64,000 nucleotides of DNA from positions 1 to 64,000 of the IMG/VR virus record IMGVR_UViG_3300043438_000518. One strand, given 5' to 3'. The stretch is from a virus (lineage: Duplodnaviria > Caudoviricetes). The translations under genes and the position numbers were made by a program. Shown here piece by piece: positions 5,613 to 63,680 of the stretch (positions within the stretch are counted from its first letter, which is position 1; each line of letters starts with the position of its first letter). Below the pieces are notes generated by a model. That model was not told where the DNA came from and made no database searches. It saw only the letters and a program-made list of their open reading frames with translations.

Positions 5613-7624
5613 TGATACATCCTAATCTAGATAGTCCAGAGTTCCTAATTAACGTAAGGAATTTCCCTGATACTGATTCAGAGGAATATACTGCGTTTTG
5701 GGAAAACGAGGATAAGAAGATTACAGAAGGTATTACTATTAATGGATTTTACTTTTCTCCTTTCATTTATTGGCATTTAAACTATTGGTCTATTTATATA
5801 GACACTATAGTAGGTAAGCGTCAAGTTCGTAAACTAGATAAACCTCAACTTTGGGACACCTACCTAGCTGTAGATGAAACCATTCACAAGGCAGAGAATC
5901 ACGAGGATGGAAAGAAAGGAGTTGTTATGGTAGGATCCAGACGTATCTCTAAGTCTGTTTTGACTTCTTCTTATATGGCTCACAAAGCCATTACACAGAA
6001 GGGTTCTGATAACTTGATATCTGCACTTAACCAACCTGACTTAAAAGTAATTACAGATTACGTAGACTTAGGTATTCGTAATCTTCCTGACTACTTTAGA
6101 TTTCCTCGTATTGAGGATGACTGGAAGAAGCAGGTTACTTTAGGTTTTAAAGATAAAAAGACCAATGCTCGTAATGAGTGGTCTAAATTTCACGTACGTA
6201 ACTTTGATGAAGGCAACAATACGGAAGCAGCTGCTGGTCTTACTCTGTCTTCTTTTCTTTTGGAAGAAGGAGGAAAGGGTAAGATTCTTAGTTGCTTAGC
6301 GGCAACTACTCCGTGTTTCGATAGTCCTTATGGATGGCGTTGTTCTCCATTTGTTATCGGAACTTCGGGAGACATGAGTAAAGCTGCTGACCTAGAAGAA
6401 TTATTTAATAACCCAGAAGCTTACAACTTCCTACCTGTAGAGGCAAACGAAACAGGTAAGAGTTATGGATTGTTTATTCCAGGAACTAAATCTCTAAAAG
6501 TACCAAAGGAAGAAAAATCCTTAGGACTTTATCTAGGCAAAGAAGAGGCTTCTGAGTTAGACTTAATTAAGATTTGGGTAGCAGACGAAGAGAAGGGTAA
6601 AGAACTTATCTTAAAGTCTAGAGAACAGATTAAAAAGTCTAGTGGATTAGAGACTTACTTAAAAGAAGTAATGTACTATCCTCTCACGCACGAGGAGTGT
6701 TTCTTAGAGTTATCTCAGAACATTTTCCCAGTAGATTTACTTCAAGAACAACTACAGAAGTTAACTGCCCAAGAGATTGTAGCAGACAACGTAGAACTCT
6801 ACATGTCAGCAGACGGAACAGTACGTCACAAGTTTACCGAGAAAAAGGCTGTTACGAACTTCCCTGTTAAACCAACAGATAATATTGAGGGTTGTGTACA
6901 GATTTGGGAATATCCTCTGTCAGAAGCCCCCTATGGACTTTATACAGCAGGAACGGATCCATACAAACAGTCACAGGCACATTACTCAACTTCTTTGGGG
7001 TCTACTTACATTTATAAGCGAGTACATAATCTTAACGGAGAAGGCTGGCAGAATATGGTAGTAGCTTGTTATACAGGTCGTCCTAAGAAGATTGAAACCT
7101 GGTACGATACTACTAAGATGCTTCTTAAGTATTACAATGCTAAGACTCTTTGTGAGAACATGGACTATGGTTTTATTCAGCACTGTGTAGATAAGCAAGA
7201 GTCTCCTAGAGTTTTAGAGAAGACACCTAAGTTTCTTAACGACATCCACCCTAACTCTACAGTTAATCGTGACTATGGAATTCACATGACCAAGGATATT
7301 AAAAACTATTTAATGTCGCTTATCATTGAGTACATCACAGAAGTAGTAGATATAGAAAGAGATGCAGATGGTAACACTATAAAAGAACGTCTAGGAGTTA
7401 CTAGAATCTTAGATCCTGTTCTAATTAAGGAATTAATTAAGTTCACACCTAAGTTAAACGTTGACCGAGTTATTTCATTTGGTCTTACTTTAGCTATGGC
7501 TAAGTCTTTAAACACTCAAGTAATTATTTCTGATGCAAGTCAGGATACTAGAATGCAAGCATACTTTAGAGAGAAGAAAGGTTCGTCTCTTTTTCGTACA
7601 ACTTCATCACCTTTTCGCTATTAA
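5612..7624 (+). CDS. terL: Terminase large subunit
   Basis: Walker A-like GSRRISKS, Walker B FLLEEGGK, nuclease motifs AGTDPY and VDRVIS; directly upstream of the portal. Confidence 0.93.
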   Translation: MIHPNLDSPEFLINVRNFPDTDSEEYTAFWENEDKKITEGITINGFYFSPFIYWHLNYWSIYIDTIVGKRQVRKLDKPQLWDTYLAVDETIHKAENHEDGKKGVVMVGSRRISKSVLTSSYMAHKAITQKGSDNLISALNQPDLKVITDYVDLGIRNLPDYFRFPRIEDDWKKQVTLGFKDKKTNARNEWSKFHVRNFDEGNNTEAAAGLTLSSFLLEEGGKGKILSCLAATTPCFDSPYGWRCSPFVIGTSGDMSKAADLEELFNNPEAYNFLPVEANETGKSYGLFIPGTKSLKVPKEEKSLGLYLGKEEASELDLIKIWVADEEKGKELILKSREQIKKSSGLETYLKEVMYYPLTHEECFLELSQNIFPVDLLQEQLQKLTAQEIVADNVELYMSADGTVRHKFTEKKAVTNFPVKPTDNIEGCVQIWEYPLSEAPYGLYTAGTDPYKQSQAHYSTSLGSTYIYKRVHNLNGEGWQNMVVACYTGRPKKIETWYDTTKMLLKYYNAKTLCENMDYGFIQHCVDKQESPRVLEKTPKFLNDIHPNSTVNRDYGIHMTKDIKNYLMSLIIEYITEVVDIERDADGNTIKERLGVTRILDPVLIKELIKFTPKLNVDRVISFGLTLAMAKSLNTQVIISDASQDTRMQAYFREKKGSSLFRTTSSPFRY

Positions 7625-7646
7625 CTAAAACTAAATAACAAATACA

Positions 7647-10169: not shown

Positions 10170-10207
10170 AACTTATTGTGCATATCGTAACCTAATTTAT
10201 TAATCTC

Positions 10208-10237
10208 TTGTGTTAATTTTTTAAAATATTACTTTTG
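10208..10237 (+). promoter_or_regulatory. Bacteroidota-type promoter for the scaffold/MCP genes
   Basis: TTG-N19-TACTTTTG. Confidence 0.65.
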
Positions 10238-10257
10238 AATTAAACCAAACTAACCTT

Positions 10258-19335: not shown

Positions 19336-19345
19336 AAATAAACAC

Positions 19346-19376
19346 TTGACTTAAAGTTAAAATTAATTTATATTTG
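19346..19376 (+). promoter_or_regulatory. Bacteroidota-type promoter for the tail module
   Basis: TTG(AC)-N20-TATATTTG. Confidence 0.75.
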
Positions 19377-19410
19377 TAATAAGCCTTAAATTAACCCAAA
19401 CTATATACTA

Positions 19411-26497: not shown

Positions 26498-26878
26498 ATG
26501 AAAGAAAAAGAACTCTTCACAACAGTTAAACCCGAAATAGTACTGGGACAGTTATTCCAGTCTAGGGACATCATTCACTTAGCTCACTTACAAACAACTT
26601 CGTTTAGTGAGCACAAAGCTTTAGACGGTTACTACTCAGAAGTAATTGGTCTATTAGATGATTTAGTAGAAGCATACTTCGGAACTATTGGAAAACGCTT
26701 AAACTTTAAGATTCCTGGATCAGAGTATATGAATGCTAAAGCTCATCTTACTTACATGAAAGACTATGTAATGAAGCATCGTAATGTATTCGGAAACGAA
26801 AACACCCATCTACAAAATATCGTAGATGAGATCATTGCTTTGATTACTTCTACTTTATATCAATTGACACTAAACTAA
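26498..26878 (+). CDS. Ferritin/Dps-like protein (DUF5856-like)
   Basis: HLAHLQTTSFSEHKALDGYY...DDLVEAYFG...LQNIVDEI four-helix pattern. Confidence 0.7.
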   Translation: MKEKELFTTVKPEIVLGQLFQSRDIIHLAHLQTTSFSEHKALDGYYSEVIGLLDDLVEAYFGTIGKRLNFKIPGSEYMNAKAHLTYMKDYVMKHRNVFGNENTHLQNIVDEIIALITSTLYQLTLN

Positions 26879-26896
26879 ATAACTAAATTAAACTAT

Positions 26897-27703
26897 ATGA
26901 ACCGTTTAAAGAAATCTTATTCTACCTGCATGAGTTGCGGAGGTAAGAAAATGAAATCAGGAGGCAAGTGGATCCAGTCTGCTATTAAAAAGCCAGGATC
27001 TTTTACTGCACAAGCTAAGAATGCTGGTATGTCTGTACCTGCATTTCGTGATAAAGTATTAAGCAACAAAGAAAAGTTTTCTAGTACCACTGTAAAGAGA
27101 GCTAACTTAGCTAAGACTCTTGCAGGAATGCGTAAAGGAGCAGATGGTATGGAAATGGATATGCCTAGAGAAATGGATATGCCTACAGTAAAACCAATTG
27201 ATCCATTAAACATGGCGGCTAAGAGTACTTTAAACCAGTTAGAAGGTTCAAATCTTTCTCCTGAAAGACAGAAGGTAATGAAGTATCAGCAAATGCTTAA
27301 GAGTAAAGGATATAATATTGCTGCTGATGGAGCTTGGGGACCACAAACACAGAAGGCTTATGAGTCTTATATTAAGACTAAAACCTCTACAACTGCTAGT
27401 AAATCCAAGTTAAGTCCTGACTTAGAAGCTATTCATGGAACTCAGAATAAGCCAGTACGTATGCAAGAAATTTCTATTAAAGCTAAGAAGCCTATGAGTA
27501 CAGCTTCTAATTTAAAACAGATGCCAAATACCAGAATGGAACCTGCATATGTTACTAGTGCATTCAACAACCTTTCTAAGTATAAGAAAAACTCTCCTAA
27601 GCAAAACTCTTCTAAGATGTCTCCTTACAAGGGAGTATCTGCTAATGAGAAGTTAGTATTGGATCGCTTAGCTAAATACAAAGCAGGTAAACCACTTCGT
27701 TAA
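26897..27703 (+). CDS. Basic modular protein with a peptidoglycan-binding domain
   Basis: Lys-rich; WIQSAIKKPG...RANLAKTL module; PG_binding_1-like YQQMLKSKGYNIAADGAWGPQTQKAY. Confidence 0.65.
   Translation: MNRLKKSYSTCMSCGGKKMKSGGKWIQSAIKKPGSFTAQAKNAGMSVPAFRDKVLSNKEKFSSTTVKRANLAKTLAGMRKGADGMEMDMPREMDMPTVKPIDPLNMAAKSTLNQLEGSNLSPERQKVMKYQQMLKSKGYNIAADGAWGPQTQKAYESYIKTKTSTTASKSKLSPDLEAIHGTQNKPVRMQEISIKAKKPMSTASNLKQMPNTRMEPAYVTSAFNNLSKYKKNSPKQNSSKMSPYKGVSANEKLVLDRLAKYKAGKPLR
27152..27185 (+). repeat. In-frame tandem duplication with an 18-nt period (EMDMP x2)
   Basis: GAAATGGATATGCCTA occurs twice. Confidence 0.8.
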
Positions 27704-29572: not shown

Positions 29573-29598
29573 TAACTAAATAAACTAAAACTAAATAT

Positions 29599-29754
29599 AT
29601 GGCCGCTAAAGCATCTAAATCAAAATCAACTTCTACTGCTTCTAAGTTTAAAGTTAAACCAAAGATTCGCAGAAAGGGAGTAGTAGCAAAAACTAAAGCT
29701 TCAAAGTTAAAGTCTAGTAAGAACTACTTAAAGAAATCACGAGGTCAGGGGTAA
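29599..29754 (+). CDS. 51-aa Lys/Ser-rich histone/protamine-like protein (not in the ORF track)
   Basis: MAAKASKSKSTSTASKFKVKPKIRRKGVVAKTKASKLKSSKNYLKKSRGQG; A-rich leader upstream and a terminator at its end. Confidence 0.7.
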   Translation: MAAKASKSKSTSTASKFKVKPKIRRKGVVAKTKASKLKSSKNYLKKSRGQG

Positions 29755-29777
29755 GCAATTACCCCTTGCTTTTTTTT
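29747..29777 (+). terminator. Intrinsic terminator
   Basis: AGGGGTAA-GCAA-TTACCCCT-TGCTTTTTTTT. Confidence 0.85.
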
Positions 29778-29795
29778 ATTAATCTTGTATATTTG
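29766..29795 (+). promoter_or_regulatory. Bacteroidota-type promoter for the cargo genes
   Basis: TTG-N19-TATATTTG, overlapping the terminator. Confidence 0.75.
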
Positions 29796-29858
29796 TATAA
29801 CTAGCTTATTCTCAAGCACTTATTAACATACTAAGTTAATAACATTAATCATTAAAAC

Positions 29859-46000: not shown

Positions 46001-47700
46001 AACTTATCGGAGATATGCAAGCTTTCTTTAAGGCATTTGCTTACGCTGGTATTATGGGAAGTCAATTAAATAAGAAGTTTGATTCTTACTTGCCTTTGAT
46101 TCCTGAGTCTATCTACACCCTTCCTATGACTTCTGTTATTGAAAACTTTAGTAGGGAGTTAGATGCTTCAGAAAGTGCAGTTGTAGAAAGAGAGTATACT
46201 CCTGAAAAGGTTACTAAGTCTAATTTACCTGATAATGGTTTCTTTGTATTTGGTTCTAATGATAGAGGTGTACATGGACTAGGAGCAGCAAAAGATGCAG
46301 TTAAAAACTTTGGAGCAGTTAAAGGTCAGGCAACAGGAAAACAAGGTCAAGCATTTGCAGTAAGAACAAAAATGTATCAGAACGGTAAACTTACTAAGTA
46401 TAATGACTTAACTGAGGACAATAAGAAAGTAATGGATAGAATGACTGTAGAAGATCTTAATGCATTAAGAATGGAGGCTATAGATAATCCTGACAATAAG
46501 TATTATGTTACAGTAATAGGAACTAAGTTAGCAGGAAGAAGTGTTGAACAGATGAAAGATTTCTTTAGTAGAATGAACAGTAAGGTTGGTATTCCTGATA
46601 ATATAATTTTGCCTGAAGAATTTGAAGTAAGAACAGAATCTGTTAGTGTTCCTTCTGAGTTTAATTTCTTTAAAAACTTCTTAACTCGATTTACTGAGAA
46701 TCATCCAGAGTTCCGTAATGCAGAAGCGCCTAAGACTATGACCTACTACAAAGACTATCTTTTGTCTAGGGATAACATTGTAGCTCAGTATGAAGCTTCT
46801 ATAGAGAGTATTACTAAGAGTACTAATGCCGGTTCTAAACAGATGATTTTAGGAACAAAAGTTAAAGATGGGATATACGTAAATCAATCTGCTTTAACTA
46901 AAGAAGAACAATTAGAGTTATTTGACTACTTAAAACCTTTCTTAGAGGAACAGGCAGCTAAAACTAATAAAGGGAAGTCCGCAAGTAAGATGATTGGTTT
47001 AGGATTAAGGTGGGATTATAAATCGAACAATCCTGGAAAACAAGCAATGAATATTCCAGATGTTATTAATCCTGCAAATAAGACTAAGTATGGGTATTAT
47101 GATTCTTCTATAAATAACCTACCTCTGGCTCCTATTACTAGTCGTTTCAGGGAGTTGATGCAGAAAGCTTCAGGAGTAGATATGACTAACTATGATGGAG
47201 CAATTATTAATTTATACGAGGAAACTACTTTTATTAGTTTACATAATGACGTAGATGAGAGTAGATCTGCTATTGGTTATCCTGTTATAGGAGTCAATCT
47301 TGGAGGTACAGGAAACTTCTCTATTGAACCCAGAAATAGTAGCCCTGAACAAATTAATCTTAAGGCAGGTACTGCTTACATTTTTGGAGTTGATGGTGTA
47401 AACAGAGAAGTTTGGCATAGAACATTGCCTAAGCCTCAAGACAGTTTCTTACCTGAATTAACCACCAACATAGATGGTAAGACTTACGAACCTGGTTCTT
47501 ATAGAGTTACGATAACTATGAGAAGAGTAATGCCTTTGGAAGAAGGAATGAATGCTACTCCTTTTATAGAAGAGACTCAATTGCCTAGTCCTGTATCCCA
47601 ACAGTTAACTTTAGAGTTACCAGTAGACAACAGTTTTGCACTGAAAGATTCCTTCAACAGTCTACGTGAGATCAATAACAACCTAAGTAAAAACTGTTGA
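34009..47700 (+). CDS. Giant virion-packaged RNA polymerase (polyvalent: zincin + RNAP + macro-like + AlkB domains)
   Basis: Catalytic RIP...SGGDFDIDKL (43981-44001), as in crAss-like vRNAPs; HEAWH zincin (39838); FVFGSN..G.HG.GAA (about 46240); HxD...H...RxxxxxR 2OG-Fe(II) motif (47242-47529). Confidence 0.9.
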   Translation: MPQDPIIALLQNQGLDPFTQSKPVSRLQAASISTSAAEISRAAAAPFQAQLTIGKGVNDILAGGAKAEMLSPYENVSSSMLKGIEIPQISLDKGIQQEIKVSADVLSRTLREGSLEESQAALKELRDKYNNISKSVLSNKEKENLRQAYAGLVEQVNQINTFKLAKQQTDSFFSENALEDREKGLKDFNANSRLPLSLKSKQTKNSDIINSLADLESNRIGSRLYNEEDLSTFKSTYVDTDKDLYAGMEMQYNYAVKQSVDEKINDYQKQIQDLDSQIKQSYDQGQKNALAMQKAGVVKELNYANNLSQKLKPYTNEDTYLKNFYPEEYTKKKDRQKQEVYRNEMLAEGDQGSWSETLYRSAQSIGSNFTKQISGAAYFFGNKELGYRLKSAAESIAPPTYFVGKDLNKNSKIDDSEITRDIHGNRVTMSQVRWIDKSGESHWNLWAPVEQTLPILTDVLTTIAISKGLGAVGRGAGLTYGRMGAAAGLGEAANASFVKNWAPRISTMGIVSATTFPRFYAEERSNFKNSDDAFKVATMRAAVEGLTESIVPDVNMFSGKIAYGALDPAFAKLGKLDPASLSRLTVKRDVLLGLLPKGAISPAKAALLMAPAALRRTLTGASQEAIEELGSLVGNYVVDQYASNQNFEVEETNQLTGEAFLDTFVEGFIPSLFISGGSTLLAKGAMKKERLDQARWNIANNPEKYKQLIANQVQNQKITKDEGLKRTVAIDRLAKQLDVIPEIQNIKSLTTLLDDKEAQYNFFNNVLFQEDLLTVDTTQLSEEQVEQHKESLAKVSKDILTTKNLADKYAGLEENDKKAIISKLFDKQAQAATSEDATLSSIMFTAEQTKQMMVTAPVNDPRYEFINEQYKNFQSKVDANIRTRVENFASRLENTPEQVTLLELQMAQDTFLPALERLDALDKGMQVENSPMAPEIGPMPENTPELMQAIKDELASRKIISAEDFNREVSQNLKNPETKQVQEAQLSVAELSEEELATGELSETAHEHLSDTQKFSLATSLQNHKKQKDQSPSELTDLEEFRNRTLFNIYKSSLEGLTPENQVAKIIEMNKVALGIAVDTPAVNNFSANPTNTAVPVTPAPVVNIPGQLDEVDREVYTEYANYLAEFNQQLADFDPTADETRTMVAEFNKNLFDSLLSLDSLNAVRSALLAVYPENVLGIEAMYEAAKQGNINLDSIQFSPKKKERFIARLKTLMGEADSTPETPVVETPTNEVLEEAPEIAEDGENNQTDNYDSAQKSTELSLTNLLKGTKGLELQLISVTKEDVSLNDPAVNLAYSIMEFYSEAERLGKSLAMKVRIQSMMGIYEFVLPAGSVERLNELKQLKSLSPEEKIELRDLLSVNNRPIHNEGMLSFLEENPSEIGTGVGTAFVNSDNNLLKFTAKGKPSTAKTAFVFIPAIKKTGIQSEKEIRERVGRGEILVSPISGIVSGVDKTSPLTNAVGENIYVHTGPATTIKGAQKVYTLKPGVVYLQKEDARYQYTGINIPTNGSDIQILVNAFNNGTLPQNIDESIRQDASLFLNYLNRQINSTKVGKEETLKIRFFKGANLFLSTTNDNKLIVKYQVEGKDGKKYLKPSKNQDEDLLKIGQSSYKLVDARFLEDNKPYTALVVDAKGKISTKQFNSYSDFIKSPEFGANYVREENRTFSFSPELESLNTSSVAVDEIDTTPIAPISEVPTTPTQPADARADIEKRTTKIISSEIVEKGNRKGQTRIVSQTNSITDLEGTLVSVTEYEAKVGDTTVGLGGKSMTLKQFKEEFPLDEDYVGIFEGLDDDSIITVIKVKRVPTSSRFNSVVSIYTVQYGKMDAGIKNDDVKYNAELAALEQPTPQPAKGPKRLSRRPTLYKDPSEDSLIDPDFFFRAKALSNSITGRQNTLAKAWVANHPIFKNTPFIFDETISHPEAYAVWSKAGIFLYEGANYAEAYHEAWHEFSQLYLTPEQKAALYAEARELYGDLTFVQLEERLADDFRAYALSEGKEFPALIQQARKSKSIFKEIWDFISNLFLNKKTVDHYFSRLYKGNLNGFKRRESNQYFKQLYSGKYTYNDAEGVSHALSYVDSKKYLDDLDSLYVATTSAMSKDKGVTFVNILANPKQANLVYSMMAKRLDSEYTQLLESYEQTDNVEYVPRIDAIVDLLENFEATVKFHKQNSFLFEDKVRKALLNNQIVEQESVNAEFASYEASVNEMSQKQLASQTLISALRTLPRYENGVQVFHPVFGTPLLSDFSSNWNILQRRLSGVNSYSELFSRVENIAEVYPQFTEFLSYLPTPEEDLTFTSDLNFKNEFYRIFSMPYIEGYTTDIKRDEDGNIEDVRVFQAQSLDAQNIRRSFDSAFSLNPSEYSLTNAETGTAYLNTTKYFNTFPGIPAVPIDEEEFEDYNRSLYNMLTPLGFNLSPNSIELFVKEDPTVQSARVSLIYNKLKSLSQVQAYIATPLASISSSHMIEDKGSKIKVEGENTSISNIIQYEVEANPQYVNDMRYNAVQKQIWSVNQHTLMTRVLGVLNDEVSYPTLEDVYRELPHLDPTNNPNTIGSFVLSYLFNTAGNRITDKMQNQQVYRKVELGNLLGIKDRGEGEKTIDSNEAKKHYADILGLVKSGVEEINRLSGKSTTRGLIMDLRLRKFLGFNNSTNQVDEFIAYGPAQVPYSLFVSRILPLIKSEVEVTLKDSDKYKISPLDGDGSPKLTYFHKIFTPEQRTALYAAYTSADSTKSLEDVFKEMPEAQAVFNKFQEYIASNVKGSEAILGTTYPVDKVDLFKYHFFSFVSRIEQHKIFFNHPYYYKNPKDIEKRLSMWNAFGSYAIIDQQNIDYLLSDRSGLSMYSHRDAFHAHAGQVGIKINANRAAVDQISYLVLKDEPIKSPTAKASKFYGKYKDAYTNDPKSEKQNAAAFCTLDFYRKFYSLSTGITLPMKQEFDRQDKIYKKYLELQRADEFTRDQLSKELEEELNKGPFYKFTIKKLQYAGHNKIESGESVPVGHKYSMKPILPSEIIGDPKLASILQKLHASSAEYAVFESGTKLSETVKPVSLFNAKGEVQDKAVPVGLIDLKNLKEQVLIENKEDFNNIFSTQFRKLVYKDITTPDGEALYESYKSIIENLTNFDKLNFLEQLDDKEKLVEFLIREISKKNAAESTKDLLRLKEDGTLTHSLDSMIDRTVMESAVVSSVKNQIIKQKLPGAQRVQYPVSLIRPSRKLRFYDIVDGKITKAEAMVSFSKGYYPLLNLLSPVDKQPIGQLDNEGNVINPHTALTRLNEALANPKFRSRYANQLTMEAIRIPGEKHRSMENYEIVEFLPEESGEIILVPDEIVIKSGGDFDIDKLFCYDPVLNADGSFTYGPEITSQEAFELKKDLINRLQENKELFREFYQDKQDLIQDLQDILVSRGIAADTRVSALYKELRSYKYVNEQELVDEGAITETDQERLRKWAAGEVSTEKKDLSKDIKNRIKVLRATLSEISDEGLSQEIININTRLSVIAKEGRDIKNELKNLRGRFTNRLLLNISNRLSQPEIFEDLIAPNDIAKVTEAVELFGSSSDITTASLTNLVSPLYQLYVFSLNTYKTSLGTDAKNNVFHALLQRTTFYREDKNGNRKFLLDANRTVDGFLNFSGVFNIDGDKISNISGEMISAHVDIEKNDGIAKIGLNNVITPVVNYANMAGVRFFDMVKLINLTDGIRKQSSIIRYSRGKSIEEVLDVMYKNASEGSVVKSLIDTSKNEFGRVIRGKLINNVFNQMLKNTTSETSKELMLSVEDPLQDLRRFAQFLELEDQTRDLATISLATDYDTFSPQNFESFRSNILSLIPYIKEGGEKAGIFNKKGLDDIINNSIIAPFQVQQDVLDKFVQVFPISANPKITNTILRQFAVVQKINRKLDYDKFSRTFKNDLLYALYINNVPQVVQFEAYLDKTSPANLATMLTNLKSRLRNRGIAADNIMFDIMSATTDVDSKYIRTGILDTDLDYSVDMYKEEFERGFNWSHSELNPDNALDSELIGDMQAFFKAFAYAGIMGSQLNKKFDSYLPLIPESIYTLPMTSVIENFSRELDASESAVVEREYTPEKVTKSNLPDNGFFVFGSNDRGVHGLGAAKDAVKNFGAVKGQATGKQGQAFAVRTKMYQNGKLTKYNDLTEDNKKVMDRMTVEDLNALRMEAIDNPDNKYYVTVIGTKLAGRSVEQMKDFFSRMNSKVGIPDNIILPEEFEVRTESVSVPSEFNFFKNFLTRFTENHPEFRNAEAPKTMTYYKDYLLSRDNIVAQYEASIESITKSTNAGSKQMILGTKVKDGIYVNQSALTKEEQLELFDYLKPFLEEQAAKTNKGKSASKMIGLGLRWDYKSNNPGKQAMNIPDVINPANKTKYGYYDSSINNLPLAPITSRFRELMQKASGVDMTNYDGAIINLYEETTFISLHNDVDESRSAIGYPVIGVNLGGTGNFSIEPRNSSPEQINLKAGTAYIFGVDGVNREVWHRTLPKPQDSFLPELTTNIDGKTYEPGSYRVTITMRRVMPLEEGMNATPFIEETQLPSPVSQQLTLELPVDNSFALKDSFNSLREINNNLSKNC

Positions 47701-47725
47701 TTAAATTTTAAATAAACTATATTTG
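47697..47725 (+). promoter_or_regulatory. Bacteroidota-type promoter
   Basis: TTG-N18-TATATTTG. Confidence 0.65.
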
Positions 47726-47741
47726 TATTAAGCCATTAACT

Positions 47742-53700: not shown

Positions 53701-54077
53701 CTATAGAGTTTCAGAACAGAGCATTTAATGATTATGCTCCTAAAACTTATACCAAAGAACTTAGGACTAGATACACTAAAGATCACGAGGGTCTTGAGAT
53801 TATGCCTACAAGAACTCGCTTAGCTCAAGAAAAGAAATTCTTTAAGAAACAACTTAAAGAAATTCAAGAAGAGATAAGAGGATATAAAGCAAAAGGAGAA
53901 CCTGTACCTGCAAGTCTAGAGAATAAGTTAGTTAAACTTAGAGACTCTTACAGAAGTAGAGTAGAAGATATTAAGGAAGGAAATACAGAAGAAGGAATTT
54001 CTATTGCTTATCCTTTCATGGATATAATTGGAAACAGAAGAGGACTAGATATTACCCCTGAGCCTGAGGAAGAATAA
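47742..54077 (+). CDS. Large ejection/cargo protein with an N-terminal ADP-ribosyltransferase-like module and a zincin HEXXH
   Basis: MFCPN start; LYH...GFY...NP...DG.I...EYVVFEPEQI module; PWHEFGH at 49191; hydrophobic C-terminal helices. Confidence 0.7.
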   Translation: MFCPNLSDPTIKAQFESLQSIVPEYAYYLWDKYQGDVPAKYYNLSTAFIRDGVSELFESNPELVNIGTPQQYSQYLDSIFPGSKVKDILYHSRFTIDNIKNKDRWKNGFYSGTRDQADLMAEMAEDGSNDLMTTVALLINMQNPKVTDFVDRKVENYKNTNDGFIIEATQEDALQLIGDRDGYNPENFKKEYVVFEPEQIHILGNKQDIDGFKKFVATSTMPISMPTTMFSRKDAKFVSDRFIRLERQYDFLKESQMDPEYWKLNSIADKKQYVAKKQFDTVVKAIEGRESVRVADNKIYLSSTKTVKGGKVLYGYAAGLASDINKMYPLVTDASPAYAREDSNGEVYVEFDLSGRYATLLVEGVEFLEEESMRAEIELMDIHDAIRREKAAIMEKLESANEVVIDGEVYAYTGSMFQKGFALTQALKDPQIKNYTKLLNRLVSKFPGVTWKWNTEIPEVAKVNLATGQIEINPTLIQEDTPWHEFGHFVVRGIRESNPELFEQLKKEVETLHNETPNSSSYSHVEASYPEYLGTDSFWEEVIVTELGRQAARKENRSLFDKVLDWFKSLIKDLGGRSTEQLAMSSLVDSLVDPSVAFETEFNEEAVSDYMFQRIVPAEEVDALTSYVKISPNDPFVFQDYAEKVQVIANAISETEFKKILDTNKYLGLGSESLQRALAAIKEVKNIVTKEDVAASVLELADYLQYNALYLTGVVRHLNNILEDPTIPSGKKLGDLHRGYKQALAIEKHVKKIEALFTTRALDEMMRSEVQKDAFLKNLSWMRTAIATIKNGHNNKIVDPVITELADTFKAQSKDIEDSFNRDIEKLKSRTQTATITKRIKELEKEKQDSLLTPENIKKFLADTNSPWYLAIDSAMGTKNPGVQLIANYIRSINNEFQENLKPIASEWQDLMDDVAASEGGFIGSALDTKKFFEPFIRETVLYEIIDGQLVKDKKVLSLNTEVKTVELGNRITELKHTIDFGATEEIREQAEEDLKKFYEEYTERPFTDDYYEIQKLLPDDIKFKRNQIYQELAAIREEFGTGIIEDEILERLRDKEQELYELERLYTEDGTLKEGKPLEDALAIQAWKEGKRSANVVSFVLTSDSKAVFERMLVDKKAQLAKSLAAAKTTQQRDDAHKAYNNWASIYTRTVYTQEFYDTRKDILDEIQRLLSDRGSLSDMYSELFNLLLGTRDTNGVYNPVSITDKQVKKAKEVEEQIEEIKALLKQDSPLSDAVKGRLGELIQDLQALQSNVNSEYYTNAVDNQLKAIRTRVFTEHTDWDVDSVERETNIRFKNSDWYKNNHITKYRYDPEIRGVVAVQEPIFMWRVTRPNDPKYIETDAPSSLWYKSVVSPKYKNDNYKPGEVTFKSVTGGPYYNSAYNNLSNNQKALLGRMRELHYRSQEGLYQKDKLGDLIPGMRKTRGEFIDLVKLKANTIKQFFKGIKNWFTGDREAFSEEEDIYGDAYQTDAFGDPVVRESRRLFNRYARTLPIEEQSYDIMTSMASYATSSERFKVMRKYQSTVLTMEEVFNQGKSESLSSKVIRDLVDRELYGKVLEDKNDSKLLRRTNSIISGVSSLAGFKTLGFSLLTLPQNWINGYLKIFSQLGFYHITAKDMAKAFGDTLGVSKEFYSTYNQFGNKSYRVSLVDYFTGTQSMANQASEINNKGLVKYGKAWKAISTLRDFTEFDISAVTTYAFLNKYRVPLKGSTTTIPLKDAFELVNGVIQPKNNVDVDPNFIQQVRMNIQLANERAQGIYSVEAQPTAMKNAWFRSLMFLKKWVIPDLKTTWGSDTVHYGAGIRTIGSHQAAMRFIRDVVLLDKGNFVRTWSTSSEVQQAGLKQFAVSLGTYTVLANLIIQMSLAMDCEEDSEADWKDYVCLGLKRTTNEAEGVFTLWGMNEMKFTYISEQANGVSIFEKIGWAALGPFSVWKKFWTDEDLWTSDPYYRYKSNSNQVDWDKTHPMQAGQIGLAVLGMEFLGLRGSFIGPKSIEFQNRAFNDYAPKTYTKELRTRYTKDHEGLEIMPTRTRLAQEKKFFKKQLKEIQEEIRGYKAKGEPVPASLENKLVKLRDSYRSRVEDIKEGNTEEGISIAYPFMDIIGNRRGLDITPEPEEE

Positions 54078-54078
54078 C

Positions 54079-54108
54079 TTGACTTTATTTTTAATTAAAG
54101 TATTTTTG
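54079..54108 (+). promoter_or_regulatory. Bacteroidota-type promoter for the lysis module
   Basis: TTG(AC)-N19-TATTTTTG. Confidence 0.7.
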
Positions 54109-54154
54109 TTATACGGACTAAGGTCGGACTTAACAGTCGTAAAGATAAATATTT

Positions 54155-56817: not shown

Positions 56818-57048
56818 ATGATTAAGATAGCAGATATAGATAAACTTATAAACCAGTTCTATTTAGACTCAGAGAAGGATGGGTTAGCAGTAAGACCTAA
56901 TGTGGTACTGCTTACAGAGGATCAGTTTGAGGATCTATTAAAAGAAATGGGAGTAGAGGAAGAAGACGATGTTGTGATAGAAAGTATACTAGGATTAGAT
57001 GTCGTCATAGCAAACGGGATAGAACATCCAAGAGTAATAAGATTATAA
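56818..57048 (+). CDS. Small acidic hypothetical protein
   Basis: Last + strand ORF before the terminator. Confidence 0.55.
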   Translation: MIKIADIDKLINQFYLDSEKDGLAVRPNVVLLTEDQFEDLLKEMGVEEEDDVVIESILGLDVVIANGIEHPRVIRL

Positions 57049-57082
57049 AAAAAGGGGCCCTATTAAGAGCCCCTTTTCTTTT
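57047..57082. terminator. Bidirectional intrinsic terminator at the strand switch
   Basis: AAAAAAAGGGGC-CCTATTAAGA-GCCCCTTTTCTTTT between convergent operons. Confidence 0.85.
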
Positions 57083-57088
57083 GGTTGG

Positions 57089-57133
57089 TAAACTAAATAA
57101 CTAAAAACTAAAACTAAATAAACTAAAACTATG
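57089..57133. repeat. Array of five ACTAAA units plus ACTATG
   Basis: TAAACTAAATAACTAAAAACTAAAACTAAATAAACTAAAACTATG. Confidence 0.85.
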
Positions 57134-57134: not shown

Positions 57135-57458
57135 TTACATCGCTTGTGGTCCTCCTGTAGCAGCTAAGAAAGCAAGAACTTCTTCTTTTACTTTCAGCTC
57201 TACTACGATTGGCTCACTTGTGATTTCAAATTTAGTGATTTTTACTGGAACTTTTTGCTTAGTTGCAGGATCAATTTTGTATTGATAGTCTACAGGGTTA
57301 AGTTTATCAGCGTTACCTTCTAAGACAACGGCTAAACCATTCTCTGTAGGGTAAGTCATAAGAACCTTGTGGATGTTAAAAGAGAAACCTTTCTTGATGA
57401 TCAATTCCATCTCTTCACCGTTCTCTACTTTTTCTTTTTCTGTGTAATAGAATAACAT
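57135..57458 (-). CDS. Hypothetical protein
   Basis: Likely start at ATG 57458 (MLFYYTEK); last gene of the minus-strand operon. Confidence 0.6.
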   Translation of the reverse strand: MLFYYTEKEKVENGEEMELIIKKGFSFNIHKVLMTYPTENGLAVVLEGNADKLNPVDYQYKIDPATKQKVPVKITKFEITSEPIVVELKVKEEVLAFLAATGGPQAM

Positions 57459-57472
57459 ATTTGTCTTTTTAA

Positions 57473-57754
57473 TTACCAAACGATAGCAATGTCTCGATCA
57501 CTTACCATGATCTTTTCTTCTCCTTCTACTTCAACTAACTCTGCTGATTGAAGGTACATGATGTTTACATAAACGAAGTCTCCTACTTTTACGTTGGTTA
57601 CTTCTTCTCCGAGAGCGTATACTTCTAAACGCTTAAGGTTAGCCAACTCTTTCATGTTCAACTCTTCTTCCATCTCTGGTGTAAGTTGAATGAGTCTTTC
57701 TTCTCTCTTAGGACGGTTGAGTAATACTCGGTGTCCTTTTACTGTGATTGCCAT
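57473..57754 (-). CDS. groES: GroES/Cpn10-like co-chaperonin
   Basis: GHRVLL...EVYALGEEVTNVKVGDFV...EVEGEEKIMVSDRDIAIV. Confidence 0.8.
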   Translation of the reverse strand: MAITVKGHRVLLNRPKREERLIQLTPEMEEELNMKELANLKRLEVYALGEEVTNVKVGDFVYVNIMYLQSAELVEVEGEEKIMVSDRDIAIVW

Positions 57755-57760: not shown

Positions 57761-58201
57761 TTAATTTGTTTTTGCTTTGATTACATCTAGACCTGCTGCT
57801 ATTAATAGTTCTAATCCTGTTCTATCTCTATAATCTTCTAGATATACAAATGTAGTGATTCCACTTTGAATAATCAACTTAGCACAATGCACACAGCATG
57901 CATGAGTACAGTACATAACGGCTCCTTCTGTACTGATAGGACTCTTGCATGCTTTAGTAATTGCATTGGATTCTGAGTGGAGTACGTATTCAAAGGTTGT
58001 ATCATTCTCTTCACATACATTTGGAAACCCTGAAGGAGTTCCATTATACCCAAAAGAGATAATGTTTCCGTTCTTTACGATTAAAGATCCTACCTGGAGT
58101 CTCTTACAGTAAGATTCTTGAGCGATTCTTACAGCTAAATCTAAGTAAAGTTCAGACTTATCAGTCTTAGGCATGTTATATATGATAGGTATTTTATACA
58201 T
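57761..58201 (-). CDS. dCMP deaminase
   Basis: SYCKRLQVG, GYNGTPSG, HSESNA and CVHCAKLIIQSGI motifs; the start may be the second ATG (MPKTDK). Confidence 0.92.
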   Translation of the reverse strand: MYKIPIIYNMPKTDKSELYLDLAVRIAQESYCKRLQVGSLIVKNGNIISFGYNGTPSGFPNVCEENDTTFEYVLHSESNAITKACKSPISTEGAVMYCTHACCVHCAKLIIQSGITTFVYLEDYRDRTGLELLIAAGLDVIKAKTN

Positions 58202-58654: not shown

Positions 58655-59113
58655 CTATCTTAAACTGAGTTCAAATCTAAAGATTTCTTTTGGAATATCT
58701 ACAACTACGTCTTTAAAATTTATATCACGATGTAAAAGAGATTTATAATCTTTGGACATGTCATTAAACCTACCTTGCTTAAACAATTCAATGTCTCTAT
58801 GATATAAAGAACTAGGTCTAAAGACATACATAACCATGTTATCTACTTCATAATAGTCGTAGAAAGAGTCAAATCCTGTAATTTTAGTTTCAAACATCTC
58901 AAAAGCATCTTTGTCTGTAGGCTTAAACAAAAAGAACAAACAGTTAGTGTACTTACTTTTATACCCGTAATCATCTATGTAAACATTAACTAACCCAAAG
59001 TTAGCAAGTAAACGAGCAGCATTAGCCCCTGATGTAAATATCATGGGGCTAAGAAACTTGGTGGTATTGTTTGTAGTATCTGAGTACACTTTACACAATT
59101 CTAAGTCCGTCAT
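58655..59113 (-). CDS. Conserved phage hypothetical protein
   Basis: In operon; DIELFKQGRFNDMSKDYK. Confidence 0.6.
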   Translation of the reverse strand: MTDLELCKVYSDTTNNTTKFLSPMIFTSGANAARLLANFGLVNVYIDDYGYKSKYTNCLFFLFKPTDKDAFEMFETKITGFDSFYDYYEVDNMVMYVFRPSSLYHRDIELFKQGRFNDMSKDYKSLLHRDINFKDVVVDIPKEIFRFELSLR

Positions 59114-60059
59114 TCCAGTAGTCCTCCATTGTATATGCCCACATATCGTTTTCTGAGTGCCATTTTAAGCGTTGAATTGCTTGGTGGAACCCTTCATACT
59201 CCTTACCTAAGTAAGTGCCTCCCATCTTTCCTAAATCCATTAGCTTGTCTGACATCTCATAGATCAAAGGACTACCTGGATACTTCTGACTTTCTACGAT
59301 AAATCTAAAGTTATGTATAGTCAAGTTCTCTCCGTAGATACTTAGGTCTGTCTGCTTAAGAGCTTCTGTGTAGAAAGCTGCTTGGAAATCATATCTGTGC
59401 TTAAGCAACATCTCTACCCAATAGTTTAAAGAAGTTGTGGTTGTTTTAAGGTCAATAGGATATAAGATGTTGTTCACTGTGTCAACTACCACTAAATCCA
59501 AAAGACCCTTACAAGCAATTCCTTCGTATTCAAACTGAAGAGACTGTTGGGTAAATACTTTAAACTGTGAATTCCCTACTACGTACTTAGAAGTAAAGGA
59601 ACTCATCTTAAGAGTGTTGGCTACGTTCTGAATGGTTGCATACTGAATAGGACTTACTACTTTCTTTCCTTCTCCAGCAATCAAGTCATCATAATAGGCT
59701 TTACCCTCTTTCTCGAATCTCTCTCTCACCTTAGCAAGAGTATCACGCTTAAATCCTGCTAATTCGTAGGCTATGTTTTCTGCCATAGTATCATTACGAT
59801 TAGCAAATAGATGCCATACAAAGTCTCCCATCTGTCCTGTAGGTCTTTCTACAGTACTAAAATAGAATTGCTCCATGAAAACATCCTCTCCTTGAGTTAA
59901 TAATAAATCTACTCCGTCACCTATAACTGTTACTTCTGCTGGTTCATCCATGTCAGAATTAGGATCGTAGTTAATATAAAGATTAGGGTGTAAAAGTATT
60001 TTCTTTAGCCTACTCTGGCTTTGTGCTGTGTTGGATAAATAATCCTCGTCTAAAATCAT
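59091..60059 (-). CDS. PD-(D/E)xK exonuclease (RecE/DUF3799-like)
   Basis: SQSRLK, CKGLLDLV, IDLKTT and YDFQAAFY motifs. Confidence 0.85.
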   Translation of the reverse strand: MILDEDYLSNTAQSQSRLKKILLHPNLYINYDPNSDMDEPAEVTVIGDGVDLLLTQGEDVFMEQFYFSTVERPTGQMGDFVWHLFANRNDTMAENIAYELAGFKRDTLAKVRERFEKEGKAYYDDLIAGEGKKVVSPIQYATIQNVANTLKMSSFTSKYVVGNSQFKVFTQQSLQFEYEGIACKGLLDLVVVDTVNNILYPIDLKTTTTSLNYWVEMLLKHRYDFQAAFYTEALKQTDLSIYGENLTIHNFRFIVESQKYPGSPLIYEMSDKLMDLGKMGGTYLGKEYEGFHQAIQRLKWHSENDMWAYTMEDYWNDGLRIV

Positions 60060-61709: not shown

Positions 61710-63680
61710 TTACTTTTTCCAAAATTTTTCTATGCAAGGATCTGCTTTGAGAGGAACTCTCTTACAAAACTTAGCACCTGCATCTACCATTGCTTTTTCT
61801 AATTGTGCAGCAGCCTGTTGCGCAATTTCCTCAGGTGTTTCTATTAATATCTCATCGTGTATTATATTGACTATCAATACTTTAAACAATAAGTTATTAG
61901 GTACTAGATACTTAGTCCAGAAATACACACAAGCTAACTTAGTAATCTCTGCGGATTCACCTTGGATAGGATAGTTCAAAGACATGCGTTCAATGTCTCC
62001 ACGCTTTCTAAAGAATTGACTTACCTTTTCTTTCATCTCTCTAGCCGTAGGTGTGTTTGCATTCTTCATCTGCTTGTACCTGTCCCAGAAATCTTTGTTC
62101 ATCTCGTTCTTAAGTTTAGAAAACTCATCGTAGTAATCTACGTAAGACTTTTTACCTGTTACGGGTGAGATAAGAACATAGCCATTCTCTACACCAAACT
62201 TCTTTGCTTCAGTAAAGTAAGCTGCTAATCCTGGGAAGGCTCTAAAGTATGCATCATAGATAGACTGACCTTGTTCTACATTTAGTCCTAGTTGATCTGC
62301 AATACCAATACCTGAGCCACCGTAGTTAATAGCAAAGCCTGCAACCTTAGCTGATTGACGCTTATCTTTGTGTTTCTTTTTGATGTCATTAAGATCCATA
62401 CCATCTAACTCAGGATACATCTTGCTCGCAATAAAGCTGTGCATATCACCCAAGTCATTATCATAGAACTCTAAGAGGTTTTTATCTAGACACTTGTTAA
62501 CTAATACAATTTGTTCTTGGCCTGTATAGTCACAACCTACTAGAGTGTTTCCTTCTGATGCTACAAAGCAAGATCGAGTTTCTTGGTCTGAGGGAATGTT
62601 CTGAAAGTTAAAGTTCTTTACGTCTCCTGATTTACCACCACTAGATAAGCGTCCTGTGTTCATCAACTGCTTAAACTGTGTGTGAATTCTTCCGCTTACT
62701 GGATTAATTTGATCTATCCAGTTCTGTCCGTAAGTCCCTATGTCTTTTTGAGCTCCTTTAAACTTTAAATAAGTCTCAATAATGGGGTATTTTGAGCTGT
62801 ATTTTACTAGATGGTTAGCTTCAATGGTGTCTTTAGTCTTTCCTTTCTCTACTACTTTAGTGTTTACACCTAGTGCCTGAAAGAATTCTACTACCTGTGA
62901 AGGTGAGTTCCAATTCACATTAACCTTAGTCGAAGAAGAGAAGAGGTCAAGTTGAGAGTCGATAAACTTTTCCATCTTATTATCTAGGATGAATTGGTTT
63001 AACTGTGCTTCAGCTTCATCTGCTATGGCTTGTACTTTGTTTATCTTAGCTGTCCATTGCTCTACGTCTAGTTTCATTCCTGAATACTCGATGTAGGCTA
63101 GTACTAATACAAACTTATTGTCCAAATCAATGGACACTGAGGTACCATCTGCTAGCTGTAAGAATTCTTGTTTGTCCTTTAATTCGTGTAGATACTTTAC
63201 GTCATACGCAGAGTACTTTACGAAACCTTCAGTAAGTCTACCTGTAATATTTAGTCGCTCTTCTTTGCTTAGTATGATTCCACAATGACGTAGTACACAA
63301 GCAGCAAGTGAGCATCTATGGCTTTCTATACCTAGGCGAGATGTTTTTTCTCCTAAGAAGGTATCGTATACCTTTGTTGGAATTACCCTATAATGATAAA
63401 GGAATCTTAGGTCAAACTTTAAGTTATGACCAATAAGACCCTTAGTCTCTAATAACTCTTTGTATTCGTTGATGTCAATCGTAGTTAAGTCTATTACGTA
63501 TTGAACATCGTTATCTCCTAACTGAAGAGTATACAGTTTAGTAGTGTAAGGATCGAAACCTGAGGTCTCTGTGTCCAAACCTATCCACTCTAACTTGTTT
63601 AAGTATTCGAGGGACTCTTGTACTGTAGTAAGGGTAATGTCGGGTAAGGAGATATCTTGTTTGGTAACTAGATATATCAT
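61710..63680 (-). CDS. polA: DNA polymerase family A with 3'-5' exonuclease
   Basis: LDTETSG, GHNLKFD, YSAYDV exonuclease motifs; TGRLSS, NFQNIP, DYTGQE, RQSAKVAGFAINYG, NYPIQG and IIHDEI polymerase motifs. Confidence 0.96.
   Translation of the reverse strand: MIYLVTKQDISLPDITLTTVQESLEYLNKLEWIGLDTETSGFDPYTTKLYTLQLGDNDVQYVIDLTTIDINEYKELLETKGLIGHNLKFDLRFLYHYRVIPTKVYDTFLGEKTSRLGIESHRCSLAACVLRHCGIILSKEERLNITGRLTEGFVKYSAYDVKYLHELKDKQEFLQLADGTSVSIDLDNKFVLVLAYIEYSGMKLDVEQWTAKINKVQAIADEAEAQLNQFILDNKMEKFIDSQLDLFSSSTKVNVNWNSPSQVVEFFQALGVNTKVVEKGKTKDTIEANHLVKYSSKYPIIETYLKFKGAQKDIGTYGQNWIDQINPVSGRIHTQFKQLMNTGRLSSGGKSGDVKNFNFQNIPSDQETRSCFVASEGNTLVGCDYTGQEQIVLVNKCLDKNLLEFYDNDLGDMHSFIASKMYPELDGMDLNDIKKKHKDKRQSAKVAGFAINYGGSGIGIADQLGLNVEQGQSIYDAYFRAFPGLAAYFTEAKKFGVENGYVLISPVTGKKSYVDYYDEFSKLKNEMNKDFWDRYKQMKNANTPTAREMKEKVSQFFRKRGDIERMSLNYPIQGESAEITKLACVYFWTKYLVPNNLLFKVLIVNIIHDEILIETPEEIAQQAAAQLEKAMVDAGAKFCKRVPLKADPCIEKFWKK

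What the first reader, a model, noticed from the sequence alone, without database searches (positions are those of the whole stretch)
57089..57133. 3' UTR of the replication transcript is antisense to the translation-start regions of several structural genes
Seen: between the last minus-strand stop codon (57135) and the bidirectional terminator lies an ACTAAA array with no real gene behind it on the + strand. Parts of it are exact copies of + strand 5' leaders located 27-50 kb away. 57112-57131 = 29574-29593 (20 nt, histone-like gene). 57089-57105 = 26871-26887 (17 nt, basic protein 26897). 57106-57121 = 7623-7638 (16 nt, portal). There are also 10-nt matches to the leaders of 13974 and 20555. 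The minus-strand replication mRNA therefore ends in UAGUUUUAGUUUAUUUAGUUUUAG..., complementary to these initiation regions and protected by a terminator hairpin. Inference: a 3'UTR-derived multi-target antisense RNA could hold late genes translationally silent during replication, even though they have host-type promoters. Caveat: the motif is low-complexity, so long matches arise more easily than their length suggests.
Basis: partly seen in the sequence, partly recalled or inferred. Interest (0 to 1): 0.85.

Follow-up and report, generated by a model that had tools for sequence, protein, structure and literature searches.

The report
Anti-leader repeat tail of phage mRNA
The last gene of a phage's replication arm is followed by a conserved run of short repeats that mirror the start regions of a few virion genes; this may be a built-in antisense brake on their translation, but nothing yet shows that it works that way.

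Summary
57089-57133 is an ACTAAA repeat array between the stop of the last minus-strand gene (57135) and a bidirectional terminator. The 20-, 17- and 16-nt identities to the leaders of 29599, 26897 and the portal gene 7647 are exact.

The lengths of these matches are not special. 26 of 59 other orders of the same units also reach 20 nt. Arrays from relatives match these leaders equally well. Only the shared unit is non-random.

For a function:
- All 48 related loci with a close homologue of the upstream gene keep the array, in the same place and orientation, as 18 alleles with 3-7 perfect units. This holds even where tail-fibre cassettes are inserted beside it.
- The + strand mini-ORF is not conserved.
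- As minus-strand RNA the array is an unpaired tract ahead of a strong terminator hairpin.
- RNA-library contigs join it to the upstream gene, strand unknown.

Against a tuned antisense regulator:
- There is no within-genome co-variation.
- ACTAAA leaders also occur on the replication arm and in relatives that lack the array.

An anti-leader 3'UTR RNA is the best single reading (about 0.35) and is unproven. It would be a new variant of a known kind.

The parts
57089..57133 (-). ACTAAA/TTTAGT repeat array. It has 5 perfect ACTAAA units plus degenerate ones. Read as minus-strand RNA it is (UUUAGU)n, starting directly after the stop codon of the upstream gene.
   Evidence: TRF period 6, 5.8 copies, score 36; unpaired in the minus-strand fold; present in 48 of 48 close relatives
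57083..57088 (.). GGTTGG word between the terminator and the array, often extended to GGTTGGTTGG in relatives. On the minus RNA it reads CCAACC, which is itself a leader-type word.
   Evidence: kept in all 18 alleles; CCAACC/AACCAA are enriched in leaders of relatives
57047..57082 (.). Bidirectional intrinsic terminator: A7, the GGGGCCC...GAGCCCC hairpin, then TTTTCTTTT.
   Evidence: The stem has 15 pairs on the minus RNA (MFE -24.5 kcal/mol, z -2.8).
57135..57458 (-). Last gene of the replication arm ('m114', 107 aa from the ATG at 57458; the ORF is open from the TTG at 57479). Function unknown; predicted all-beta with a C-terminal helix.
   Evidence: pLDDT 74; no PDB match with E <= 0.001; no Pfam or PHROG hit
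56818..57048 (+). Last gene of the + arm ('p76'), convergent with m114.
29574..29598 (+). Leader of a 51-aa very basic protein gene (29599-29754). It is the best predicted partner (-30.4 kcal/mol).
   Evidence: Its homologues keep ACTAAA arrays in 5 of 5 close genomes.
26869..26896 (+). Leader of the 268-aa gene 26897-27703 (-26.6 kcal/mol).
   Evidence: The 17-nt match depends on a 10-nt duplication absent from relatives whose protein is 94-99% identical.
7623..7646 (+). Leader of the portal gene 7647-10100 (-24.3 kcal/mol).
   Evidence: portal PHROG, E 1.7e-101. The ACTAAA leader is kept in all 21 fetched loci whose portal is >=89% identical and whose start was recovered; none of the loci at 75-80% has it.

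Best explanation
Proposed mechanism: the array is transcribed from the minus strand as the unstructured 3' tail of the last early (replication-arm) mRNA. It reads stop codon, (UUUAGU)n, CCAACC, strong terminator hairpin. It then acts as a multivalent 'anti-leader': its repeats pair with ACUAAA-type, G-free, Shine-Dalgarno-less start regions. The main partners are the internal cistrons for the 51-aa basic protein, the 268-aa protein and the portal. Pairing would turn a start region that must stay single-stranded into a duplex, damping translation while early transcripts are abundant.

Shown: the anatomy, the conservation, the complementarity, the absence of a + strand coding role, and presence in RNA libraries.

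Inferred: the transcription strand, the timing (by analogy with crAss-like phage phi14:2), any pairing in vivo, and any effect on translation.
For: 1. Position and orientation are kept in 48 of 48 loci whose m114 is >=80% identical. These form 18 alleles with 3-7 perfect units. This includes 15 loci where 1.7-4.3 kb cassettes and a different, one-directional terminator lie next to the array. In those loci + strand transcripts cannot reach it, so a + strand RNA role is excluded there.
2. The + strand ATG is absent from at least 13 of 18 alleles.
3. The minus-strand fold is a 44-nt unpaired array followed by a 15-bp hairpin and U7.
4. Three start regions pair at <= -24 kcal/mol. In 100 shuffles the mean count was 0.18 and the maximum 1. 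The duplexes lie at about -26 to -6 from the AUG (coordinates).
5. ACTAAA arrays in leaders are always sense to the downstream gene. The leader motif is therefore an RNA-level feature, and this array is its only antisense copy and the largest.
6. In Flavobacterium johnsoniae, initiation depends on upstream adenines and low structure in the start region (Baez 2019, PMC6847099; abstract and passages).
7. In crAss-like phi14:2 the whole replicative module is early and the opposite arm is middle/late and read by host RNAP (Drobysheva 2020 bioRxiv; passages). Here the + arm carries TTG...TAnnTTTG promoters and the giant ORF carries DFDID.
8. Contigs from two RNA libraries span 57086/7 to 57601/3, joining the array to m114.
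Against: - No co-variation. Within-genome longest array-leader matches (20, 17, 17, 14, 13, 11 nt) are no longer than between-genome ones, which reach 22 nt. Unit-order permutations match as well as the real array.
- The array is dispensable. G002 keeps the same p76 > terminator < m114 layout with only about 13 nt of tail. G001, G005 and 4 of 4 distant loci also lack the array. Yet ACTAA leaders are as frequent there: 13-29 of 108-128 leaders.
- Only three start regions stand out. The rest equal the mid-gene background (median -12.8 against -12.3 kcal/mol).
- The motif also leads replication-arm genes (72996, 76105, 87315).
- The RNA evidence is unstranded contigs and could be DNA carry-over. 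Contig ends also coincide at 57601-57614, which suggests assembly-graph breaks rather than RNA ends.
- No processing site or convincing internal promoter was found. The TAAATTTG at 57234 has no -33 TTG.
Confidence: 0.35

Rival explanations
1. Slippage-born low-complexity spacer with no sequence-specific role. A leader-like ACTAAA stretch landed inverted behind m114. It now expands and contracts by replication slippage, which also keeps the units uniform.
For: - Copy number varies from 3 to 7 with many spacer variants, and some units are decaying (L015, L026, L031).
- TRF scores it only 36.
- The array is absent from G001, G002, G005 and 4 distant loci with the same genes.
- The leader of 26897 shows a fresh 10-nt duplication, so this motif does slip.
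- The long matches are explained by unit vocabulary alone.
Against: - It was never lost and never fell below 3 perfect units in 48 of 48 loci (18 alleles). Over the same span p76 falls to 62% and m114 to 81% amino-acid identity, and the neighbouring terminator was replaced.
- Compact phage genomes rarely keep 25-65 nt of idle DNA. G002 shows that about 13 nt is enough here.
- The orientation is fixed.
- The unit is exactly the complement of the most enriched specific leader word.
Confidence: 0.25
2. Cis-acting tail of the early transcript. The U-rich unpaired tract, together with the hairpin, forms an insulating end of early transcription (for the virion or host polymerase). Alternatively it sets the stability of the m114 message or binds a protein. 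Either way it keeps early transcription out of the late genes that lie convergent or, in insert-bearing relatives, directly downstream on the same strand.
For: - The array always sits with a terminator at the early/late boundary.
- In 15 of 48 loci the next thing downstream on the same strand is a host-type promoter (read in L022) and a tail-fibre-like operon.
- The tract contains several U3-U5 runs.
- The orientation is fixed.
Against: - Other terminators inside the minus arm (near 64.3, 67.7, 75.1, 88.3 and 90.5 kb) are plain hairpins with no array. I saw this in the upstream stretches printed, by eye only.
- This reading does not explain why the unit is the complement of the leader word rather than any U-rich sequence.
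- G002 ends the same gene without it.
Confidence: 0.2
3. DNA-level site: tandem ACTAAA hexamers or heptamers are bound by a phage or host protein, as short direct repeats are by ribbon-helix-helix partition or repressor proteins. The copies in leaders and at the arm junction would serve the same DNA-binding factor.
For: - The same double-stranded word recurs at several gene starts and at the junction of the two arms, where cumulative GC skew peaks.
- The neighbouring GGTTGG is also conserved.
Against: - Arrays in leaders are strictly sense-oriented and sit between a stop and a start codon inside operons, far from promoters. This fits an RNA or translation role.
- No candidate binding protein was identified. 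m114 gave no fold match.
- The comparison with ribbon-helix-helix operators is recalled, not tested.
Confidence: 0.08
4. Leader of a translated + strand mini-ORF (MITSLVVLL).
For: In this genome the array ends in ...ACTAAAACT-ATG, with spacing like real leaders.
Against: - The ATG is missing in at least 13 of 18 alleles (26 of 48 loci), which read ACTACTTAACC, ACTATTAGATCG or AAACTGGTATC instead.
- Where present, it is only the complement of m114's last codons.
- The array lies downstream of the + strand terminator. In insert-bearing relatives it is 1.7-4.3 kb from any + strand gene.
Confidence: 0.02

Closest known systems
3'UTR-derived trans-acting small RNAs of enterobacteria (CpxQ, SroC, DapZ class; recalled, not searched here)
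   Same: The regulatory tract sits at the 3' end of a coding mRNA and shares its intrinsic terminator. A single-stranded seed lies ahead of the hairpin. Several predicted targets are paired at their start regions.
   Different: The seed is a tandem repeat rather than a unique sequence. The host type is Bacteroidota, where no Hfq-type helper is known to me. No processed fragment, chaperone or validated target is shown.
P1/P7 c4 and P22 sar antisense RNAs (c4 as described in the review PMC12197685, passages seen; sar recalled)
   Same: A phage RNA blocks translation of another phage gene by pairing around its ribosome-binding region.
   Different: c4 acts on one target (ant) in its own transcript through two short unique sequences, and sar is a cis-antisense RNA. 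Here the partners lie 27-50 kb away on the other arm, and the pairing element is a generic repeat.
C-rich 'anti-Shine-Dalgarno' small RNAs of Firmicutes (RsaE/RoxS type; recalled)
   Same: Repeated short motifs complementary to the generic ribosome-recruiting word of many mRNAs give one RNA several targets.
   Different: Those motifs are C-rich and target GGAGG. Here the word is UUUAGU against an A-rich, SD-less leader, and the RNA is an mRNA tail rather than a free-standing gene.
A-rich, unstructured start regions of Flavobacteriia (Baez 2019, PMC6847099; abstract and passages)
   Same: The ACTAAA leaders of this phage are G-free and A-rich, and sit within 30 nt of the start codon, as that model expects.
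   Different: The array at 57089-57133 has this sequence only on the strand that is not used for any gene. It is the mirror image of a leader, not a leader.

Membership tests
3'UTR-derived trans-acting sRNA | Lies at the 3' end of an mRNA and ends in that mRNA's intrinsic terminator | tested here: met
   The stop is at 57135-57137, the array follows directly, then the hairpin and U7.
3'UTR-derived trans-acting sRNA | Accumulates as a discrete stable RNA, by processing or from an internal promoter | not testable with these tools
   Only unstranded contigs of RNA libraries were available. The one -7-like box upstream (57234) lacks a -33 TTG.
3'UTR-derived trans-acting sRNA | Conserved single-stranded seed | tested here: met
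   The array is unpaired in the MFE and centroid folds. The ACTAAA unit is kept in 18 of 18 alleles.
3'UTR-derived trans-acting sRNA | Pairing with targets supported by co-variation or experiment | tested here: not met
   Within-genome matches are no longer than between-genome matches in six genomes. Unit permutations match as well.
Neutral tandem repeat (minisatellite-like) | Head-to-tail copies with copy-number polymorphism among relatives | tested here: met
   TRF gives period 6 and 5.8 copies. Relatives have 3-7 units in 18 alleles.
Neutral tandem repeat (minisatellite-like) | No constraint on presence or orientation (lost or flipped in some lineages) | tested here: not met
   It is present and co-oriented in 48 of 48 close loci. 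It is absent only outside the clade.
Translation-initiation leader of a + strand gene | Followed by a conserved start codon and open reading frame | tested here: not met
   The ORF is 9 codons long. The ATG is absent in at least 13 of 18 alleles.
Cis-antisense RNA (sar/OOP type) | Transcribed opposite to, and overlapping, its target gene | tested here: not met
   The predicted partners lie at 7.6, 26.9 and 29.6 kb, 27-50 kb from the array.
Intrinsic bidirectional terminator | GC-rich hairpin with a U tract on both transcribed strands | tested here: met
   In insert-bearing relatives only the minus direction has the T run (L022, by eye).

The most novel reading that the evidence does not exclude
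A crAss-like phage of a Shine-Dalgarno-less host uses the tail of its last early mRNA as a multivalent 'anti-leader'. This is a tandem array of UUUAGU units that zips onto ACUAAA-type start regions of selected virion genes. In insert-bearing strains the targets would include newly acquired tail-fibre genes. The array would time or dose their translation, and slippage in the array would tune the valency. That would be a repeat-based, evolvable translational timer with no described counterpart in Bacteroidota or their phages.
Probability: 0.2. Interest if true: 0.8.

Novelty: new variant of a known kind. Interest (0 to 1): 0.45.

Why it matters
Translation control is poorly understood in Bacteroidota, which ignore Shine-Dalgarno sequences, and no phage RNA regulator is known for crAss-like phages. 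The long early non-coding RNAs of phi14:2 are still unexplained (Drobysheva 2020, passage). A repeat array complementary to the generic A-rich leader word would be a simple way to repress SD-less start regions. It is also directly testable with existing Flavobacterium johnsoniae reporters. If it proves to be only a retained repeat or a terminator accessory, the result still stands as a caution: in low-complexity leaders, exact matches of 16-20 nt carry little information by themselves.

Tried and rejected
- **Rfam**: only sub-threshold hits driven by the terminator hairpin (best L20_leader, 33 bits against a gathering score of 58.7). Rejected.
- **DNA search of the phage collection**: no match. 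Protein search found only distant Cellulophaga and Lacticaseibacillus phage homologues of p439 (at most 34% identity), of no use for the array.
- **m114 function:** no Pfam or PHROG family. The AlphaFold model has pLDDT 74. Foldseek against PDB gave no match with E <= 0.001. So there is no support for an RNA- or DNA-binding role of the neighbouring gene.
- **Unit-permutation sub-test:** faulty, because a regular expression split the array into 3 pieces and gave only 2 permutations. Discarded and redone.
It showed only that the motif is common low-complexity DNA. I did not classify those loci.
- **Co-variation across clades:** I looked for a different anti-leader array behind the m114 homologue of G001, G002 and G005 to match their different leader words. 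There is none, so that test could not be made.
- **RNA contigs**: contig ends at 57086/7 in two runs looked like an RNA end. However, all runs that cover that stretch (X1, X2, X11) also break at 57601-57614, so I read these as assembly-graph breaks. The uncovered hairpin stretch 57030-57085 is not evidence of anything. Only contigs were available, so strand, ends and level are unknown.
- **PHROGs on the giant ORF**: no polymerase family. tblastn of 2,500 of its 4,563 residues gave only weak hits in crAss-like records.
- **Literature:** searches, and passages of the review PMC12197685, showed no repeat-array anti-leader in a phage mRNA tail. These were three searches of an open-access library only.

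Full report
**Setting**

The window is the first 64 kb of a 104,260-bp virus record. Genes run on the + strand from 40 to 57048. They include the large terminase (5612-7624), portal (7647-10100), major head protein (11414-12937) and ORFs of 4563 and 2111 aa. From 57135 to about 94.7 kb they run on the minus strand. That arm includes a family-A DNA polymerase (61710-63680), a dCMP deaminase (57761-58201), an exonuclease (59091-60059) and a weak GroES-like protein (57473-57754, PHROG E 5e-4).

The + arm operons start with TTG...TAnnTTTG promoters of Bacteroidota type. The 4563-aa ORF has one DFDID word, the catalytic word of the virion RNA polymerase gp66 of the crAss-like phage phi14:2 (Drobysheva 2020 bioRxiv, passage). 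In that phage the whole replicative module is early and is read by the virion enzyme. The opposite arm is middle/late and is read by host RNAP (passages). I use this only as an analogy. PHROGs did not name the giant ORF, and tblastn of part of it gave only weak hits in crAss-like records.

**The observation**

All three long identities are exact. The 11-nt matches to the 13974 leader were computed. The 10-nt match to the 20555 leader I read off the print; I did not compute it. The minus ORF 57135-57479 ends at 57135, and a hairpin with A and T runs on both sides lies at 57047-57082.

The array is the largest ACTAAA cluster in the genome. It is also the strongest 'anti-leader' intergenic element: 20 nt, against 14 nt for the next one that is not just the back of a real leader.

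**Is it more than chance?**

Three null models give three answers.
- Mononucleotide shuffles almost never match as well (longest >=20 in 0.2% of 500).
- Random arrays built from ACTAAA plus A/T spacers match nearly as well (mean longest 15 nt; >=20 in 3%; 4 matches of >=16 nt in 0.4%).
- Permuting the array's own units matches just as well. Of 59 other orders, 26 reach 20 nt and 21 reach 4 matches of >=16 nt (the first attempt inside one search was faulty and is discarded).

The arrays of five relatives match this genome's leaders at 16-22 nt. So the long identities follow from a shared unit vocabulary.

That vocabulary is itself non-random. ACTAA stands in 24 of 119 leaders against about 0.066 expected per window. 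AACTAA is 10.5-fold enriched in leaders. Arrays of two or more units elsewhere sit almost only just upstream of start codons, in the sense orientation, on both arms. They are internal cistron junctions (stop codon, ACTAAA units, start codon). Promoter-proximal genes use AAACCAAAC-type leaders instead.

**Relatives**

A search with the 439-aa neighbour gave 64 viral contig loci. Of these, 52 contain an m114 homologue; the other 12 end too early or lack one in the fetched DNA.

- All 48 loci with m114 >=80% identical carry the array directly after the m114 stop. Orientation is the same in every case. GGTTGG and then a terminator follow. There are 18 distinct alleles with 3-7 perfect units.
- In 15 of the 48, an insert of 1.7-4.3 kb separates m114 from p76.
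- In L022 the insert is three minus-strand tail-fibre/virion-like genes. It has its own host-type -7 box. The 666-aa gene has an (ACTAAAta)x3 leader. The terminator beside the array is a different hairpin, with a T run only in the minus direction.
- There the array still follows m114. It belongs to the end of the m114 transcript, not to the convergence point, and a + strand RNA role is excluded in these genomes.
- The ATG of the proposed mini-ORF is absent from at least 13 of 18 alleles. One search counted it in 3 alleles (19 loci) under a 9-nt rule. The print adds two alleles (3 loci) where it lies slightly further on.
- The 4 loci with m114 at 50-61% identity have no array.
- Three array-less complete or near-complete relatives (G001, G002, G005) have none either. 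G002 keeps the same p76 > terminator < m114 layout with about 13 nt of tail.
- Those genomes still have ACTAA-rich leaders: 13-29 of 108-128. These include an ACTAAA leader before a 53-aa ORF in G001 that I take, from its similar upstream sequence only, to be the basic-protein gene; its homology was not tested.

The leader word is therefore older than, and independent of, the array.

**RNA-level anatomy and pairing**

As minus-strand RNA the tail is a 44-nt unpaired tract followed by a 15-bp hairpin and U7.

Duplex predictions of the 59-nt tail against 119 start regions single out three: 29599 at -30.4, 26897 at -26.6 and portal at -24.3 kcal/mol. In 100 shuffles the mean number at <= -24 was 0.18 and the maximum 1. 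The remainder equal the mid-gene background (median -12.8 against -12.3). Two replication-arm start regions reach <= -20.

In five close genomes the 51-aa-gene leader keeps 2-4 units. The portal leader keeps them in all 21 fetched loci with >=89% portal identity whose start was recovered, and in none at 75-80%. The 26897 leader mostly has one unit. The 17-nt match here comes from a 10-nt duplication shared only with L107.

Within-genome longest matches (20, 17, 17, 14, 13, 11 nt) do not exceed between-genome ones. There is no sign that array and leaders are tuned to each other beyond the unit.

**Expression**

Two freshwater metatranscriptome runs from different studies each hold a contig spanning 57086/7 to 57601/3, that is the array plus m114. 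Other contigs cover p439 and p76. These are contigs: the strand is unknown and DNA carry-over is not excluded. Their coincident ends look like graph breaks, because all runs that cover that stretch also break at 57601-57614.

**Reading**

The mini-ORF is out. A + strand RNA role is out for a third of the clade.

What remains is a minus-strand 3' tail or a DNA site that is clearly retained. In all 48 loci it was never lost and never fell below 3 perfect units, while p76 drops to 62% identity and the terminator is swapped. Its unit is the exact complement of the phage's most specific leader word.

That coincidence, the sRNA-like anatomy, and the known dependence of Flavobacterium initiation on unstructured A-rich start regions (Baez 2019; abstract and passages) make an anti-leader RNA the best single explanation. 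I put it at about 0.35.

The rivals, and why each falls short:
- A slippage-maintained repeat with no specific role (0.25) fits the copy-number variation and the array's absence outside the clade. It fits the universal retention poorly.
- A cis-acting insulating or stabilising tail at the early/late boundary (0.2) fits the position. It does not explain the identity of the unit.
- A DNA-binding site (0.08) is disfavoured by the strictly sense orientation of the motif in leaders.

**Novelty and score**

If the anti-leader reading holds, it would be a new variant of known kinds: mRNA-tail-derived regulators, phage antisense RNAs that block ribosome binding, and repeat-motif anti-SD RNAs. It would be the first for an SD-less host and for crAss-like phages as far as my three literature searches and one review show. 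These covered an open-access library only, and supplements were closed.

Without stranded RNA data or a reporter test it remains a well-framed hypothesis. Interest 0.45.

Noticed in passing
L022:7579-11220 (and 14 other loci); window equivalent 57049-57082: The gap between p76 and the terminator beside the array is a hot spot for cassettes of 1.7-4.3 kb (15 of 48 loci). In L022 the cassette holds three minus-strand tail-fibre/virion-like genes. It has its own host-type -7 box, and an (ACTAAAta)x3 leader precedes the 666-aa gene.
   Followed up: partly
window 3750-3790, 10200-10240, 19340-19380, 29760-29800, 47690-47730, 54070-54110: The + arm operons start with a strongly conserved extended promoter, CTTGACTT - spacer - TA(t/a)(a/t)TTTGT. 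Genes next to these promoters use AAACCAAAC-type leaders, whereas ACTAAA units mark internal cistron junctions.
   Followed up: partly
window 26869-26896: The leader of gene 26897 carries a 10-nt duplication (ACTAAAttaa) found only here and in L107. Relatives whose protein is 94-99% identical lack it, so leader repeats slip on short time scales.
   Followed up: yes
G000 78.3-82.0 kb (beyond the window): About eight small minus-strand genes are preceded by GGAGG-like words (GGAGGT is 9.7-fold enriched in leaders). This is unexpected for a phage whose promoters point to an SD-blind Bacteroidota host. The words may instead be shared C-terminal coding sequence of overlapping upstream genes.
   Followed up: no
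G000 87183-87271 and 89334-89408 (beyond the window), minus strand: ARAGORN finds two tRNA genes, tRNA-Leu(UAA) and tRNA-Glu(UUC), and no suppressor tRNA.
   Followed up: no
window 34009-47700: The 4563-aa ORF has a single DFDID word at residue 3326, the same catalytic word as gp66 of phi14:2. PHROGs names only a 130-residue stretch of unknown function near the C-terminus, and tblastn of residues 701-3200 finds only weak hits in crAss-like records.
   Followed up: partly
window 57135-57458 (minus): The gene before the array encodes a well-conserved 107-aa protein (41 invariant positions among 12 homologues). It is predicted all-beta with a C-terminal helix, has no family and no PDB fold match, and always sits next to a GroES-like gene.
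   Followed up: partly
window 57083-57088: GGTTGG (often GGTTGGTTGG) is kept between the terminator and the array in all 18 alleles, although the hairpin beside it differs. On the minus RNA it reads CCAACC, which is a sense leader-type word, so the tail joins an anti-leader tract to a leader-like tract.
   Followed up: no
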